From an uncultured bacterium (GTDB lineage: Bacteria; Omnitrophota; Omnitrophia; Omnitrophales; Abzuiibacteriaceae), in the NCBI GenBank assembly GCA_964387845.1, contig CAYLXA010000003.1, positions 128,001 through 192,000 of the forward strand: 64,000 bases of DNA. The letters are read 5' to 3'. The translations under genes and the position numbers were made by a program. Within the stretch, counting starts at the first letter, position 1. Every line of letters starts with the position of its first letter. This document shows positions 4,748 to 32,369 of this stretch, piece after piece. The notes under the pieces were generated by a model. It searched no databases, was not told the DNA's origin, and saw only the letters and a program-made list of their open reading frames with translations.

Positions 4748-4839
4748 TGGCGGAGAGATAGGGATTCGAACCCTAGAGACCCCGTTAAGGGCCTACGTAC
4801 TTTCCAGGCACGCCCGTTCGACCGCTCCGGCATCTCTCC
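4748..4839 (-). tRNA. tRNA-Ser(GGA)
   Basis: 92 nt, type II tRNA. Acceptor GGAGAGA/TCTCTCC, anticodon loop CTGGAAA, long variable arm, T-loop TTCGAAT, CCA encoded. Confidence 0.9.
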
Positions 4840-9448: not shown

Positions 9449-9467
9449 AATGGCCTCTAAGAAAAAC

Positions 9468-9554
9468 CGGAGAGGGTAGGATTCGAACCCACGAGACCCG
9501 TAAGGGCCTAACGGTTTTCAAGACCGCCGCATTCGACCGCTCTGCCACCTCTCC
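9468..9554 (-). tRNA. tRNA-Ser(TGA)
   Basis: 87 nt type II tRNA; anticodon loop CTTGAAA, long variable arm, CCA not encoded. Confidence 0.85.
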
Positions 9555-9635
9555 AAGTATCAGTTGTAAGCTGTAAGTGCTAAGAATTCTTTTTTTGACT
9601 TACCACTTACAACTTATCGCTTAACACTAGAAGAA

Positions 9636-9728
9636 CGGAGAGGGGGGGATTTGAACCCCCGGTGGCACTTTTCAATGCCACAGCGGTTTAGCAAACCGCC
9701 GCACTAAACCGGGCTATGCGACCTCTCC
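9636..9728 (-). tRNA. tRNA-Ser(GCT)
   Basis: 93 nt type II tRNA; anticodon loop TTGCTAA, T-stem GGGGG/CCCCC, CCA not encoded. Confidence 0.85.
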
Positions 9729-9810
9729 ACATATCAGTCGTAAGTTATAAGTGTTAAGTGATAAGAAACACCTATTTCTTGGCTTACCACTTACAACTTA
9801 TCACTTACCA

Positions 9811-25906: not shown

Positions 25907-26191
25907 ATGGCGTGTGTTTATGTTATTTATAGTCAGATAAAAGAGAAATTTTACGTAGGTTCGAGCAGAGAAGAAACTGCCACCCAAAGAATTCTATCCC
26001 ACAACGCAGGCAAAACAAGATCAACTAAATCTGGCCGCCCTTGGGTGTTAGTATTTGAAGAACAATTTCTCAACTATACGGAAGCAAGAAAAAGAGAAAA
26101 CTTCTTAAAGTCAGGTGTTGGTAGACAATTTATTAAGCAAAAATGGAGAGGTGCCAGAGCGGTCGAATGGGGCGGTCTCGAAAACCGTTAG
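25907..26191 (+). CDS. Small GIY-YIG nuclease-domain protein (YhbQ/COG2827-like)
   Basis: 94 aa with VYVIYS...KFYVGSS...R...HN...EARKRE matching the GIY-YIG catalytic core. The last about 15 codons are encoded by the 5' part of tRNA-Ser(CGA); the exact 3' end is uncertain. Confidence 0.55.
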   Translation: MACVYVIYSQIKEKFYVGSSREETATQRILSHNAGKTRSTKSGRPWVLVFEEQFLNYTEARKRENFLKSGVGRQFIKQKWRGARAVEWGGLENR

Positions 26192-26231
26192 GCTCTTATG
26201 GGTCTCCTGGGTTCGAATCCCAGCCTCTCCG
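26145..26231 (+). tRNA. tRNA-Ser(CGA)
   Basis: 87 nt type II tRNA; anticodon loop CTCGAAA, T-loop TTCGAAT, no encoded CCA. Confidence 0.85.
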
Positions 26232-26240
26232 ATTATTTTT

Positions 26241-29199: not shown

Positions 29200-29601
29200 A
29201 TGACACCAAAAAAAGGAAAGCTTAGCGTCAAATCCAGAGTGAGCAGCCTGAAACATGCGTTCTCGGGCCTTGTGGATATGCTGCTGACAGAGCCGAATGC
29301 GTGGGTTCACATGATTGCCACGGTTCTTGTTCTATTAATGTCGTGGTGGCTTCAAATCAGTATCGGCGGCTTTGTTGCTATTGTCATTGCCATCGGCGGC
29401 GTCTGGATGGCGGAAGCTTTTAACACCGTTCTTGAGATTGTGGTCGATTTGGTATCCTCCGGCCAATATTCGGACGCGGCAAAGCGTGCTAAGGATATCG
29501 CGGCCGCCGCTGTTCTCATTTGGACCGTTGCCGCCAGCCTGATCGGTTTTATCGTTCTCGGCCCGCCGCTTTATGCGCGCCTCCTCCCCCTCTTCTCTTA
29601 A
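29200..29601 (+). CDS. dgkA: Diacylglycerol kinase / undecaprenol kinase (DgkA family)
   Basis: 133 aa; 3 TM helices; signature AEAFNTVLE. Confidence 0.75.
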   Translation: MTPKKGKLSVKSRVSSLKHAFSGLVDMLLTEPNAWVHMIATVLVLLMSWWLQISIGGFVAIVIAIGGVWMAEAFNTVLEIVVDLVSSGQYSDAAKRAKDIAAAAVLIWTVAASLIGFIVLGPPLYARLLPLFS

Positions 29602-29619: not shown

Positions 29620-30010
29620 TTTAACTACGCTCAGGCCCTCGACTCAGCCGACGTTCGGATTTCCCAGCGAGAAATCCTCACTCGACTTCCGGCTGCCCTC
29701 GGCAAGAATAGGCTTCTCAAGAAGCATCTCTCGGAGCTCTTGGGAGCTTGGCTCCCCGCCGTTTTGCTTCGCAAAGCAAAGCAGCGGGGATCCCAAGAGC
29801 GAGAGCGAAGGCACCGAGACGCCGCAGCCCGTCACCCATATTAAATTTTCTATTGAAGGTGAGGGCTGTCCCAATTCTCAAATGAATATACGCCCCAGAC
29901 GCTTTATTGATAATTGGGACAGGAGCGGCTCGAGTGCCGGTGCTGGATGAGAAGTCCATTCTTGCCGCCATGCTCGGGCAGCCTCCAGACGCGTCTTCGC
30001 CGAGGCCTTC
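29620..30010. ncRNA. GC-rich highly structured non-coding island upstream of dnaX (candidate structured ncRNA; identity unresolved)
   Basis: About 390 nt, GC-rich between AT-rich flanks, with overlapping low-complexity ORFs on both strands. Nested helices: GCTCTTGGGA(29738)/TCCCAAGAGC(29793), extendable to about 15 bp; apical hairpin CCCCGCCG-TTTGCTT-CGCA-AAGCAAA-GCAGCGGGG; CTGTCCCAATT/AATTGGGACAG; long-range GCGAAGGC...GAGACGCC(29797-29816)/GGCGTCT...GCCTTCGC(29983-30003). Confidence 0.35.
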
Positions 30011-30072: not shown

Positions 30073-31758
30073 ATGTCATATCAAGTCTTCGCGCGCAAGT
30101 TCAGGCCGCAAACTTTTGATGAAGTCATCGGCCAAGAACACATCACCACAACCCTTAAAAATGCGATTAAAAAGGGCCGAGTTGCGCAAAGCTTCCTATT
30201 TTCGGGCTCCCGCGGCGTCGGGAAAACATCCACAGCCCGGATTTTAGCCAAAGCGCTCAACTGCCAAAAGGGCCCCAGCGAAAATCCGTGCGGGAAATGC
30301 CCGAGCTGTGAAGAAATCACGCGCGGCGCAAGCCTTGATGTGCTCGAAATCGACGGTGCATCAAACCGCGGCATCGATGAAATCCGGAATCTTCGCGACA
30401 ACGTCAAATTTAAGCCTTCCAGCGGGCGTTATAAGATTTACATTATTGACGAAGTCCACATGCTGACGGGAGAAGCGTTTAATGCGCTTCTAAAAACACT
30501 TGAAGAGCCTCCGGAACATGTGAAATTTGTTTTTGCGACAACCGAATCGCACAAAGTTCCCCTGACAATCCTTTCAAGGTGCCAAAGGTTTTCATTCCGC
30601 CGCGTTTCCACTTCATTGATTCACGATAAATTGAAGGAAATCTGCAAAAAAGAAAAAATCAAGGCAGGCGAGAAAACACTTTTCCTGATCGCAAAGTCCG
30701 CAGAAGGAAGTTTGCGTGACGGCGAAGGGCTTCTGGACCAAATGTCGAGTTTCGGCGAAGGCGAAATCAAAGAAGACGATGTTTTGTTTTCACTCGGCCT
30801 GACATCGGATGAAACTTATCTTCAATTAATCCGCGCGGTTGAATCGAGAAAATCAAAAGACGTTTTGTCGCTTGTCAGCGAGTTGGTGGATCAAGGGAAA
30901 GACATCGAGCAATTTACCAAAGGCCTTTTGGAGTATTTCCGTGATCTTTTGGTGCTGAAGCTCGGTGATGTAAAGTCCGAATTCATCGAGCGCGATGAAG
31001 AATCGCTCTCGGAGCTTCTGAAATTTTCAGAAAGTTTCAAACGCGAAGAGCTTTTCTTGATTTTAAGCCTGCTTCAGCAGCTTCTCCGGGAAATTAAATG
31101 GTCAAAAAGCCCGCGTTATCTTTTAGAAATTTGCCTGCTCAAAATCGCAAACCGGGAAGAGCTTTCGGCGATTCAAGATATTTTGTCTGAACTCCGGCAG
31201 ATTTCAAAAACACCGGCGCAGTTTTCACCTTCATCAAGCGGTGTTTCCAATTTTCAAGCGGCCTCGTTTCAGGATAAAAAAAAAGCCGTTGAGCGCCCCG
31301 AAATAAAATTCCAACTCAAACCTGCTTTGAAATCCGAGGCAAAAAATCCGGAAGAAACCGCGGTTTCCGCTTACGGCGTGCGCGATATCGATTTTGAAGA
31401 AATGGAGCGCGCCTGGCCGGAACTTTTGTCGCGCGTAAAAACCACCAGGATGTCGGTCGGCACTTATCTTTCGGAATCGGAACCTTTGGAAGTTGCGGGC
31501 AATAAAATTACATTCGGATTTCCGCCGGAATTTAAATTTCATATGGAAAATCTGGAGCATCAGGGCAATAAGGGCTTTATTCAAAAAACGCTCGAGGATA
31601 TTCTGAAAGCGAAAGTGCAAATTCAGTTTGTTGTGGCAAAAGCGGAAAAAATCGAAAAAGTTGTGCCCAAAACCGAACCCGAAAAAGAAAATAATTCAGA
31701 AGTCATTTTGTCCGCGCTGGATATTTTTCAAGGCAGTAAAGTGATCCGGAAAGCTTAG
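30073..31758 (+). CDS. dnaX: DNA polymerase III subunit tau/gamma
   Basis: 561 aa; AAA+ GSRGVGKTS, zinc module CxxC...CxxC, C-terminal tau region. Confidence 0.9.
   Translation: MSYQVFARKFRPQTFDEVIGQEHITTTLKNAIKKGRVAQSFLFSGSRGVGKTSTARILAKALNCQKGPSENPCGKCPSCEEITRGASLDVLEIDGASNRGIDEIRNLRDNVKFKPSSGRYKIYIIDEVHMLTGEAFNALLKTLEEPPEHVKFVFATTESHKVPLTILSRCQRFSFRRVSTSLIHDKLKEICKKEKIKAGEKTLFLIAKSAEGSLRDGEGLLDQMSSFGEGEIKEDDVLFSLGLTSDETYLQLIRAVESRKSKDVLSLVSELVDQGKDIEQFTKGLLEYFRDLLVLKLGDVKSEFIERDEESLSELLKFSESFKREELFLILSLLQQLLREIKWSKSPRYLLEICLLKIANREELSAIQDILSELRQISKTPAQFSPSSSGVSNFQAASFQDKKKAVERPEIKFQLKPALKSEAKNPEETAVSAYGVRDIDFEEMERAWPELLSRVKTTRMSVGTYLSESEPLEVAGNKITFGFPPEFKFHMENLEHQGNKGFIQKTLEDILKAKVQIQFVVAKAEKIEKVVPKTEPEKENNSEVILSALDIFQGSKVIRKA
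31276..31284 (+). other. A9 slippery run inside dnaX (candidate -1 frameshift / transcriptional-slippage site for the gamma subunit)
   Basis: Nine A's in-frame as AAA AAA AAA (KKK, codons 402-404). The -1 frame reads AGC CGT TGA (stop after 2 codons); the +1 frame stops after 6 codons. Confidence 0.5.
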
Positions 31759-31763
31759 CCCTC

Positions 31764-32369
31764 ATGAGCGAAGGTTACCCCGAGATTCTTACCCGCTTGA
31801 TGAAAGCATTTACCATGCTCCCCGGCATCGGCCCTAAATCTGCCGAGCGGATTGTGCTTCAATTATTAAAAGAAAGCGACCAGCAAGTCCGCGAACTTTC
31901 AAAACTGCTCGTGGATGCAAAAGAGAAAATTTTCTTCTGTGATCTCTGCCGCAATCTAACCACCGAAAAGCTTTGCGGAATCTGCAAAGACCCGACGCGC
32001 GTGCAGAAAATCCTGTGTATTGTGGAAAGCCCGAAAGATGTGGCTTTGATTGAAAAAACAGGCGCTTTTCACGGGCTTTTTCATGTTTTATTCGGAACCT
32101 TATCGCCGATCGACGGTGTCGGCCCCCAGGAGCTCCGGCTTGACCGGCTGCTCAAGCGAATTAAAACCACCGGGATCGAAGAAGTAATTTTAGCGACCAA
32201 CCCCAACACGGAAGGCGATACCACCGCGCTTTACATGGCTGAGAATTTAAAAGGAACGAGCGTGAAAGTCACGCGAATCGCGCGCGGGGTTCCGGTCGGG
32301 AGCCATCTGGATTATGTAGACCCGGCGACGCTAGAACAAGCAATGACGGGGCGGACCGTTTTAAGTTAA
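31764..32369 (+). CDS. recR: Recombination protein RecR
   Basis: 201 aa; C4 zinc finger CDLC...CGIC, Toprim domain. Confidence 0.9.
   Translation: MSEGYPEILTRLMKAFTMLPGIGPKSAERIVLQLLKESDQQVRELSKLLVDAKEKIFFCDLCRNLTTEKLCGICKDPTRVQKILCIVESPKDVALIEKTGAFHGLFHVLFGTLSPIDGVGPQELRLDRLLKRIKTTGIEEVILATNPNTEGDTTALYMAENLKGTSVKVTRIARGVPVGSHLDYVDPATLEQAMTGRTVLS

What the first reader, a model, noticed from the sequence alone, without database searches (positions are those of the whole stretch)
31271..31300. A9 slippery run inside dnaX positioned to produce a truncated gamma subunit
dnaX contains nine consecutive A's read in-frame as AAA AAA AAA (codons 402-404 of 561). A -1 shift reaches TGA after two codons (S-R-stop) and a +1 shift stops after six. 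An AGGA sits just upstream. This mirrors the E. coli A-AAA-AAG frameshift and the Thermus A9 transcriptional-slippage mechanisms that make gamma from the tau gene, at a similar relative position (about 72% of tau).
Basis: partly seen in the sequence, partly recalled or inferred. Interest (0 to 1): 0.6.

Follow-up and report, generated by a model that had tools for sequence, protein, structure and literature searches.

The report
Conserved A9 slippery run in dnaX
A run of nine A's inside the DNA-replication gene dnaX of an uncultured Omnitrophota bacterium is kept letter for letter in about twenty diverged relatives and most likely lets the cell make a second, shorter clamp-loader protein, the same trick already known from Thermus, so this is a well-supported but unsurprising new example.

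Summary
dnaX (30073-31758, +, 561 aa) carries A9 at 31276-31284, read in frame as AAA AAA AAA (codons 402-404). The -1 frame stops after S-R (TGA 31290-31292) and the +1 frame after six codons (TAA 31304-31306). The run lies in the variable linker between domain III and the C-terminal DnaX_C domain.

It is not chance. It is the only A9/T9 run in 64 kb, where shuffles predict about 23. Exactly A9 is present in 20 of 27 non-redundant Omnitrophota dnaX genes with at least 50% identity, although the flanking DNA is randomised. Three lineages keep A9 in another phase (peptide EKKT), so the run is conserved, not the peptide. Stops close both alternative frames far more often than the null predicts.

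No E. coli-type stimulators are conserved: there is no downstream hairpin, no Rfam match, and the upstream AGGA is clade-specific and too close.

Best reading: Thermus-type programmed transcriptional slippage that yields a gamma-like product of about 46 kDa beside a 63-kDa tau, possibly with some -1 ribosomal frameshifting on the embedded A_AAA_AAA heptamer. It is a new member of a known kind. No expression data exist.

The parts
30073..31758 (+). dnaX ORF encoding full-length tau-like DnaX (561 aa, 63.4 kDa), uninterrupted in the zero frame
   Evidence: ORF list; Pfam DNA_pol3_delta2, lid, gamma3, DnaX_C; homologs named DNA polymerase III subunit gamma/tau in Omnitrophota; mass
30772..31179 (+). 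Region coding for domain III (aa 234-369), the last domain that the short product would keep
   Evidence: Pfam PF12169 match at aa 234-369
31276..31284 (+). A9 homopolymer (AAA AAA AAA, codons 402-404): the proposed slippage site
   Evidence: Only A/T run of 9 or more in the window, against 23.5 expected. Exactly A9 in 21 non-redundant relatives
31278..31284 (+). In-frame A_AAA_AAA heptamer embedded in the run: a possible -1 ribosomal frameshift site
   Evidence: Read from the sequence. Relatives whose run has decayed keep exactly this in-frame heptamer (L137, L138, L139, L028) or A_AAA_AAG (L100)
31290..31292 (+). TGA stop in the -1 frame. It ends the product of A10/A7 mRNAs or of a -1 frameshift (...KKK-S-R, 406 aa, 45.9 kDa)
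   Evidence: A -1 stop within 3 codons in 14/20 relatives against a null of 0.23 (p 1e-5)
31304..31306 (+). TAA stop in the +1 frame. It ends the product of A8/A11 mRNAs (...KK-K-PLSAPK, 410-411 aa, 46.2 kDa)
   Evidence: A +1 stop within 4 codons in 14/20 relatives against a null of 0.19 (p 1e-6)
31271..31274 (+).
   Evidence: Found next to the run only in the window and four relatives (L081, L082, L085, L140 by sequence); absent at that position from the other A9 lineages. It lies 3 nt from the heptamer
31396..31692 (+). Region coding for DnaX_C (aa 442-540), the tau-only C-terminal domain that the short product would lose
   Evidence: Pfam PF20964 match at aa 442-540

Best explanation
The A9 run is a programmed transcriptional-slippage site of the Thermus thermophilus dnaX type.

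Proposed mechanism. While RNA polymerase transcribes nine consecutive T's of the template, the whole RNA:DNA hybrid is homopolymeric, so the nascent RNA can realign and A's are added or lost. This gives a mixed mRNA population.
- Transcripts with 9 or 12 A's encode full-length tau (561-562 aa, 63 kDa).
- Transcripts with 10 or 7 A's are read into the -1 frame and end at TGA after S-R (405-406 aa, 45.9 kDa).
- Transcripts with 8 or 11 A's are read into the +1 frame and end at TAA after PLSAPK (410-411 aa, 46.2 kDa).

Both short products keep domains I-III, the clamp-loader ATPase core, and lack DnaX_C, the tau-specific part. They therefore correspond to a gamma subunit. Some -1 ribosomal frameshifting on the embedded A_AAA_AAA heptamer may add to the -1 product.

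Shown: the sequence anatomy, its nucleotide-level conservation, and the conservation of stops in both alternative frames. Inferred: that slippage happens, its efficiency, and that the short protein is used.
For: - Anatomy: A9 in frame, stops 2 and 6 codons away in the two other frames, placed after domain III and before DnaX_C.
- Run conservation: 20 of 27 non-redundant Omnitrophota dnaX genes with at least 50% identity, plus one at 47%, have exactly A9 in the linker. Their flanks are at random identity, median 0.28.
- Codon level: 17 phase-0 lineages use AAA three times. AAA makes up about 58-88% of the other Lys codons in the same genes, giving a product probability of 5e-7.
- Three lineages (L107, L108, L117) keep A9 in phase 1, changing the peptide to E-K-K-T. 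So the run is conserved, not KKK.
- Both alternative frames close quickly. The -1 stop lies within 3 codons in 14/20 (null 0.23, p 1e-5). The +1 stop lies within 4 codons in 14/20 (null 0.19, p 1e-6). Both lie within 6 codons in 13/20 (null 0.08, p 3e-10). The -1 stops are TGA, TAA or TAG built from different zero-frame residues (F-E, I-N, I-R, I-D, I-K; sequences), which points to selection on the stop rather than on the peptide. Selection on the +1 frame is expected for slippage, where A's are both gained and lost, but not for a pure -1 ribosomal shift.
- No ribosomal stimulators. Downstream 50-nt folds have a mean z of -0.11, with 0/21 below -2, whereas the E. coli cassette control gives -19.1 kcal/mol and z -2.34. 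There is no Rfam DnaX-element hit at E up to 10. The SD-like sequence is not conserved.
- The genome avoids such runs: 1 observed against 23.5 expected in the window, and 6 runs in 135 kb of relatives' flanks against 21 in about 12 kb of linkers.
- Precedent: T. thermophilus dnaX uses A9, slippage and nearby stops in both non-zero frames to make gamma:tau at about 1:1 (PMC5009743, PMC1088944, both citing Larsen et al. 2000).
Against: - There are no RNA or protein data for this organism or any relative, so slippage by an Omnitrophota RNA polymerase is untested.
- Any A9 run contains an in-frame A_AAA_AAA heptamer, so -1 ribosomal frameshifting cannot be excluded from sequence alone.
- Relatives whose run has decayed keep exactly the in-frame heptamer (A7 in phase 2 followed by G in L137, L138, L139 and L028; A_AAA_AAG in L100). 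That hints at a translational component.
- Part of the enrichment of +1 and -1 stops is shared by descent: a weak KKK-[ED]-x-[FI]-x-[LV] motif recurs in several lineages. The binomial p-values therefore overstate independence.
- A second Omnitrophota clade (about 50% identity, P/A-rich linker) has no run at all, so the short product is not universally required.
Confidence: 0.62

Rival explanations
1. The short product is made mainly during translation. Either there is a -1 programmed ribosomal frameshift on the in-frame A_AAA_AAA heptamer (31278-31284), or ribosomes slide on the poly-A lysine tract. Either way translation would end at TGA 31290-31292, and transcription would be faithful.
For: - The heptamer is present in the correct phase.
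- The -1 stop is conserved within 3 codons in 14/20 lineages.
- Where A9 has decayed, what remains is exactly the in-frame heptamer followed by G (L137, L138, L139, L028) or the E. coli-type A_AAA_AAG (L100).
- L028 has a 7-bp hairpin 5 nt downstream, z -2.03.
- E. coli dnaX is the precedent (PMC5009743).
Against: - A heptamer needs 7 A's, yet exactly 9 are conserved, including in phase-1 variants.
- The +1 frame is also closed significantly early, which a -1 shift does not require.
- There is no conserved downstream structure (mean z -0.11, 0/21 below -2) and no conserved SD-like element at about 10 nt.
- There is no Rfam match to the DnaX frameshifting element.
- In E. coli, A_AAA_AAA is reported to be much less shift-prone than A_AAA_AAG (PMC5009743).
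Confidence: 0.22
2. There is no recoding. KKK is a conserved basic motif of the tau linker (for example a contact or flexibility element) and is encoded by AAA simply because AAA is the preferred lysine codon. The nearby off-frame stops are a by-product of A/T-rich codons.
For: KKK is nearly invariant at protein level in alignment A1. AAA is the majority Lys codon in these genes, about 75%. A weak peptide motif follows the run in several lineages.
Against: - The probability that all 17 phase-0 lineages use AAA three times is about 5e-7, given their own codon use.
- Three lineages keep A9 but not KKK; their peptide is EKKT.
- Off-frame stops are enriched against a null taken from the same genes.
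- The residues that supply the -1 stop are chemically unrelated (E, N, R, D, K) but all start with GA, AA or AG after a T.
- The genome otherwise avoids A9/T9 runs, 1 against 23.5 expected.
Confidence: 0.08
3. The run is a hypermutable DNA tract (replication slippage or phase variation) or an assembly artefact, with no programmed role in expression.
For: Homopolymers are hotspots for indels and for sequencing errors (general knowledge).
Against: All 21 non-redundant assemblies, and four duplicate contigs from other samples (L084, L095, L099, L105), show exactly A9 with an intact tau frame. No A8 or A10 variant was seen in this clade. A heritable +/-1 change would remove the C-terminal domain from all DnaX, which is unlikely to be tolerated as a switch.
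Confidence: 0.03

Closest known systems
Thermus thermophilus dnaX A9 programmed transcriptional slippage (Larsen et al. 2000, as described in PMC5009743 and PMC1088944)
   Same: The gene is the same and a single zero-frame ORF encodes tau. There is a run of exactly nine A's in the sense strand, stop codons lie close by in both alternative frames, no stimulatory RNA structure is needed, and the predicted short product lacks the C-terminal tau-specific part.
   Different: The phylum differs (Omnitrophota). [quoted passage not shown] Slippage is experimentally shown in Thermus and only inferred here.
Escherichia coli dnaX -1 programmed ribosomal frameshift cassette (A_AAA_AAG plus upstream SD-like element plus downstream stem-loop; annotated 'DnaX frameshifting element')
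   Same: [quoted passage not shown] An in-frame A-rich heptamer is present.
   Different: The heptamer is A_AAA_AAA, not A_AAA_AAG. AGGA lies 3 nt upstream rather than about 10 nt and is not conserved. There is no downstream stem-loop (z -0.9 and +0.25 in the window, against -2.34 for the E. coli control). There is no Rfam match.
Two-ORF dnaX genes with A10 and shorter poly-A runs, in which tau itself requires recoding (Antonov et al. 2013, PMC3711429)
   Same: A poly-A run in dnaX is used as the recoding site, with transcriptional realignment as the proposed mechanism.
   Different: In those genes the zero frame stops right after the run and the long product needs the shift. Here tau is the standard zero-frame product and the short product needs the shift.
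Caulobacter crescentus gamma made by proteolysis of tau (cited in PMC5009743)
   Same: The end result is the same: two DnaX forms from one gene.
   Different: That route is post-translational and has no slippery sequence. Nothing in the present data bears on proteolysis.

Membership tests
DnaX (clamp-loader tau/gamma) protein family | AAA+ clamp-loader module, lid, domain III and a tau C-terminal domain | tested here: met
   Pfam: DNA_pol3_delta2 E 1.3e-45, DNAX_ATPase_lid, DNA_pol3_gamma3, DnaX_C, all above their curated cut-offs. Homologs are named DNA polymerase III subunit gamma/tau.
Thermus-type dnaX transcriptional-slippage site | Homopolymeric A run of about 9 in the sense strand inside dnaX, downstream of the clamp-loader core | tested here: met
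   A9 at 31276-31284, after domain III (aa 369). The length is conserved at exactly 9 in 21 non-redundant relatives.
Thermus-type dnaX transcriptional-slippage site | Tau encoded by one uninterrupted zero-frame ORF | tested here: met
   A 561-aa ORF runs through the A9 to DnaX_C. The same holds in all relatives.
Thermus-type dnaX transcriptional-slippage site | Stop codons close to the run in both non-zero frames | tested here: met
   Window: the -1 stop comes after 2 codons and the +1 stop after 6. Relatives: both within 6 codons in 13/20, against a null of 0.08.
Thermus-type dnaX transcriptional-slippage site | mRNA population with heterogeneous A-run length | not testable with these tools
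   No transcript data are available. This needs RNA sequencing or in vitro transcription.
Thermus-type dnaX transcriptional-slippage site | Two protein products (tau and a shorter gamma) in comparable amounts | not testable with these tools
   No proteomic data. Predicted masses are 63.4 kDa and 45.9/46.2 kDa.
E. coli-type dnaX -1 PRF cassette | A_AAA_AAG slippery heptamer in frame | tested here: not met
   The window has A_AAA_AAA followed by GCC. Only relative L100 has A_AAA_AAG.
E. coli-type dnaX -1 PRF cassette | SD-like stimulator about 10 nt upstream of the heptamer | tested here: not met
   AGGA ends 3 nt before the heptamer. SD-like motifs are absent from most A9 lineages. In the E. 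coli cassette AGGGAG ends 10 nt before the heptamer (sequence verified).
E. coli-type dnaX -1 PRF cassette | Stable stem-loop a few nt downstream; match to the Rfam DnaX frameshifting element | tested here: not met
   Window downstream fold: z -0.92 for 60 nt and +0.25 for 50 nt. Across 21 lineages the mean z is -0.11. The E. coli control gives z -2.34. No Rfam hit at E up to 10.
E. coli-type dnaX -1 PRF cassette | Stop in the -1 frame shortly after the shift site | tested here: met
   TGA two codons after the run.
Two-ORF (tau-by-recoding) dnaX | The zero frame terminates at the run and the C-terminal domains lie in another frame | tested here: not met
   The zero frame is open to aa 561 and contains DnaX_C.

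The most novel reading that the evidence does not exclude
Within one clade of Omnitrophota the homologous site appears in three states: A9 (transcriptional-slippage type; 21 lineages), A_AAA_AAG (E. coli ribosomal type; L100) and in-frame A_AAA_AAA_G (L137, L138, L139, L028). This could be a natural series in which transcriptional and translational recoding replace each other at the same codon.

Combined with the A9/A10 runs found in the same linker of dnaX in Ignavibacteriota, Bacteroidota, Leptospira, Planctomycetota and Desulfobacterota (12 runs in 72 loci), it would mean that making gamma by poly-A slippage is a widespread and repeatedly evolved bacterial solution, not a Thermus peculiarity.
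Probability: 0.35. Interest if true: 0.5.

Novelty: new member of a known kind. Interest (0 to 1): 0.35.

Why it matters
Bacteria reach the tau/gamma pair of the replicative clamp loader by different routes: ribosomal frameshifting in E. coli, transcriptional slippage in Thermus and proteolysis in Caulobacter. This convergence is used as an argument that gamma matters.

This locus adds an uncultured phylum (Omnitrophota) in which the signal is visibly under purifying selection at the nucleotide level: exact run length, AAA-only codons, and stops kept in both alternative frames. It shows that recoding which produces a truncated product, and which disrupted-ORF screens miss by design (PMC4066793, PMC1088944), can be detected by comparing sequences alone.

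In practice, annotation of these MAGs should list two dnaX products. It does not change the current understanding of the mechanism.

Tried and rejected
- The genome-contig scan with the whole protein was swamped by generic AAA+ motifs and returned mostly distant phyla. It was useless for close relatives but was reused as a cross-phylum survey.
- A protein-level survey of KKK with regex anchors failed to anchor on most sequences of the second clade. Only its anchored subset was used (32 KKK, 9 KK-only, 10 none).
- In the tally the linker coordinates ignore alignment gaps, so the windows are a fixed 79 codons. The run counts agree with the 450-nt windows, but the linker length there is nominal.
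- The search for an E. coli-like downstream hairpin or upstream SD-like element was negative in the window and across the 21 A9 lineages. Rfam was negative.
- The hairpin search at the A7/A8 variant sites gave no consistent signal.
- P0041 (387 aa) was suspected to be a run-length variant. It is a single G-to-T nonsense change 31 codons upstream of an intact A9.
- The primary Thermus paper (PMC26496) is not in the held library, so its content is cited through reviews.
- No paper links dnaX and Omnitrophota.
- An SRP RNA gene was looked for upstream of dnaX and not found.

Full report
**1. Observation**

The window encodes a 561-aa DnaX on the + strand at 30073-31758, followed 5 nt later by recR (31764-32369). 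Pfam places the clamp-loader AAA+ module at aa 20-178, the lid at 183-230, domain III at 234-369 and the tau C-terminal domain DnaX_C at 442-540.

Nine consecutive A's occupy 31276-31284 and are read in phase as AAA AAA AAA, codons 402-404 (...FQD-KKK-AVERP...). The -1 frame reads AGC CGT TGA, so it stops after two codons. The +1 frame reads CCG TTG AGC GCC CCG AAA TAA, so it stops after six. AGGA lies at 31271-31274.

**2. Chance?**

It is the only A or T run of nine or more in the 64 kb. Shuffles that preserve dinucleotide content predict 23.5 +/- 6.9 such runs. The genome therefore avoids these runs, and its single exception is in dnaX.

**3. Organism and relatives**

The closest proteins are DnaX of uncultured Omnitrophota. 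In a 29-sequence alignment (55-84% identity) the linker between domain III and DnaX_C is essentially unalignable, except for a nearly invariant KKK.

DNA for relatives came from three sources: a metagenome scan seeded with a C-terminal-half alignment, exact-protein look-ups, and three Omnitrophota loci from the genome scan.

**4. Nucleotide-level conservation**

- Of 27 non-redundant genes with at least 50% identity, 20 have exactly A9 in the linker, and one further gene at 47% does too.
- Thirty nt on each side of the run have a median pairwise identity of 0.28, which is random.
- In the 17 phase-0 lineages all three lysine codons are AAA, although AAG makes up 12-42% of the other lysine codons in the same genes. 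The product of the per-gene probabilities is 5e-7.
- Three lineages (L107, L108, L117) carry A9 in phase 1 (GAA AAA AAA ACx, peptide EKKT). The run is conserved, not the peptide.
- Duplicate contigs from other samples show the same A9, which argues against assembly error.
- In the relatives' flanks there are 6 A/T runs of 9 or more in 135 kb, against 21 in about 12 kb of linker.

**5. Alternative-frame stops**

A null distribution was taken from every codon boundary of the same 20 genes.

| Measure | Observed | Null | p |
|---|---|---|---|
| -1 stop within 3 codons | 14/20 | 0.23 | 1e-5 |
| +1 stop within 4 codons | 14/20 | 0.19 | 1e-6 |
| both within 6 codons | 13/20 | 0.08 | 3e-10 |

The -1 stop is TGA, TAA or TAG, assembled from a T-ending codon plus a codon that starts with GA, AA or AG. 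The zero-frame residues at that position are E, N, R, D or K, which are chemically unrelated. This suggests that the stop is the selected feature (sequences).

These p-values assume independent lineages. Several lineages share a weak KKK-[ED]-x-[FI]-x-[LV] motif, so the true significance is lower, but lineages with unrelated downstream sequence show the same pattern.

**6. Stimulators**

- The 60 nt downstream of the run fold no better than shuffles (z -0.92), and neither do the 60 nt upstream (z +0.88).
- Across 21 A9 lineages the mean z of the downstream 50 nt is -0.11, and none is below -2.
- The genuine E. coli dnaX cassette was used as a positive control. Its sequence was verified at 100% identity in 5424 E. 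coli genomes, where it is annotated "DnaX frameshifting element". It gives -19.1 kcal/mol and z -2.34.
- Rfam reports no DnaX element, even at E up to 10.
- The AGGA occurs next to the run only in the window's nearest relatives, where it is simply the codons for Q/E-D. It ends 3 nt before the in-frame heptamer, whereas AGGGAG ends 10 nt before the heptamer in the E. coli cassette.

**7. Mechanism**

The anatomy matches what reviews describe for Thermus thermophilus dnaX. There, a run of nine A's undergoes transcriptional slippage that gives mRNAs with extra or missing A's. Stops lie nearby in both non-zero frames, and gamma and tau are made at about 1:1 from a single tau ORF (PMC5009743, PMC1088944).

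Simulated transcripts give these products:

| A's in mRNA | Product |
|---|---|
| A9 / A12 | tau, 561-562 aa, 63.4 kDa |
| A10 / A7 | ...KKK(K)SR, 405-406 aa, 45.9 kDa |
| A8 / A11 | ...KPLSAPK, 410-411 aa, 46.2 kDa |

From general knowledge, a nine-base run spans the whole RNA:DNA hybrid of the elongation complex. That would explain why no stimulator is needed and why the length, rather than the phase, is conserved.

I therefore favour programmed transcriptional slippage (confidence about 0.6). It remains an inference, because no RNA or protein was examined.

**8. Rivals**

- **-1 ribosomal frameshifting on the embedded A_AAA_AAA heptamer.** It cannot be excluded. It gains some support from relatives whose run has decayed: L137, L138, L139 and L028 keep A7 in exactly the phase that preserves the heptamer, followed by G, and L100 has A_AAA_AAG. 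Against it as the sole mechanism are the two surplus A's, the phase-1 variants, the selected +1-frame stops and the lack of stimulators.
- **A purely protein-level KKK motif.** This is contradicted by the codon statistics, the EKKT variants and the stop enrichment.
- **Hypermutable tract or artefact.** This is contradicted by the invariant length in all assemblies.

**9. Distribution**

A second Omnitrophota clade (about 50% identity, P/A-rich linkers) lacks any run, so the feature is clade-specific.

Outside the phylum, 72 dnaX loci from the genome scan contain 12 A9/A10 runs in the same post-domain-III linker, against 7 in 351 kb of flanks. They come from Ignavibacteriota, Bacteroidota, Leptospira, Planctomycetota and Desulfobacterota, and most have a stop within 0-3 codons in at least one alternative frame.

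The literature records the Thermus case and a set of two-ORF A10 genes (PMC3711429). It notes that disrupted-ORF screens cannot see sites that yield shorter products (PMC4066793, PMC1088944). No paper in the held library links dnaX and Omnitrophota.

**10. Verdict**

One refinement is needed: the site is Thermus-like rather than E. coli-like, and the AGGA is incidental. It is a new member of a known kind, with convincing comparative support and no experimental support. Interest is moderate to low for a specialist. The most interesting residue is the apparent coexistence of A9, A_AAA_AAG and A_AAA_AAA_G states at the homologous site within one clade.

Noticed in passing
window 29736-29800 (+), in the 470-nt gap between the diacylglycerol-kinase-like gene (29200-29601) and dnaX: A very stable long hairpin (-51.5 kcal/mol, z -5.13, no shuffle as good) with no U-tract after it. 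It is unique in the window. No comparable inverted repeat lies upstream of dnaX in relatives L081 and L140. Rfam gives only noise-level hits. Its function is unknown.
   Followed up: partly
L005, L012, L020, L021, L026, L033, L038, L057, L066, L068, L076 (dnaX linker, aa about 376-423): A9 or A10 runs in the same post-domain-III linker of dnaX in Ignavibacteriota, Bacteroidota, Leptospira, Planctomycetota and Desulfobacterota MAGs or genomes. Most have a stop within 0-3 codons in an alternative frame. There are 12 runs in 72 loci, against 7 in 351 kb of flanks. L020 (Leptospira biflexa MAG) has two A9 runs.
   Followed up: partly
L018 (aa 514/554), L037 (aa 566/610), L053 (aa 514/551): A10 runs close to the C-terminus of dnaX in a Trichlorobacter, a Nitrospirales and a deltaproteobacterial MAG, each with a -1-frame stop 1-3 codons later. 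Slippage there would trim only the last 40 or so residues.
   Followed up: no
L100, L137, L138, L139, L028 (dnaX linker): Omnitrophota relatives without A9 keep an in-frame slippery heptamer at the homologous place: A_AAA_AAG in L100 and xxA_AAA_AAA_G in the other four. L138 has a hairpin that ends 1 nt upstream of its A7 (z -2.28). L028 has a 7-bp hairpin 5 nt downstream (z -2.03).
   Followed up: partly
L141 1371-1373 versus L090: L141 is 99.94% identical to L090 but has a single G-to-T change that turns GAA into an in-frame TAA at dnaX codon 388, so the called protein (P0041) has 387 aa. The A9 run 31 codons downstream is intact. This is probably a population variant or an assembly error.
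   Followed up: yes
L114 and L116 (start of DnaX_C...VKAKKMSCG...): In the second Omnitrophota clade, which has no linker run, an A8 in phase 2 (GCA AAA AAA ATG) sits at the conserved KKMS motif that opens DnaX_C. L103 and L109 have A7 and A6 at the same place.
   Followed up: no
window 31759-31763 and relatives L137, L139, L140: recR follows dnaX directly, with a gap of only a few nt and no ybaB/EbfC-like gene between them. This differs from the dnaX-ybaB-recR order that I recall from many bacteria. No SRP RNA gene lies upstream of dnaX.
   Followed up: partly
window 4748-4839, 9467-9555, 9635-9729, 26144-26232: Four tRNA-Ser genes with four different anticodons (GGA, TGA, GCT, CGA) lie within 22 kb. 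ARAGORN finds six tRNAs in the window, while Rfam's gathering threshold reports four.
   Followed up: no
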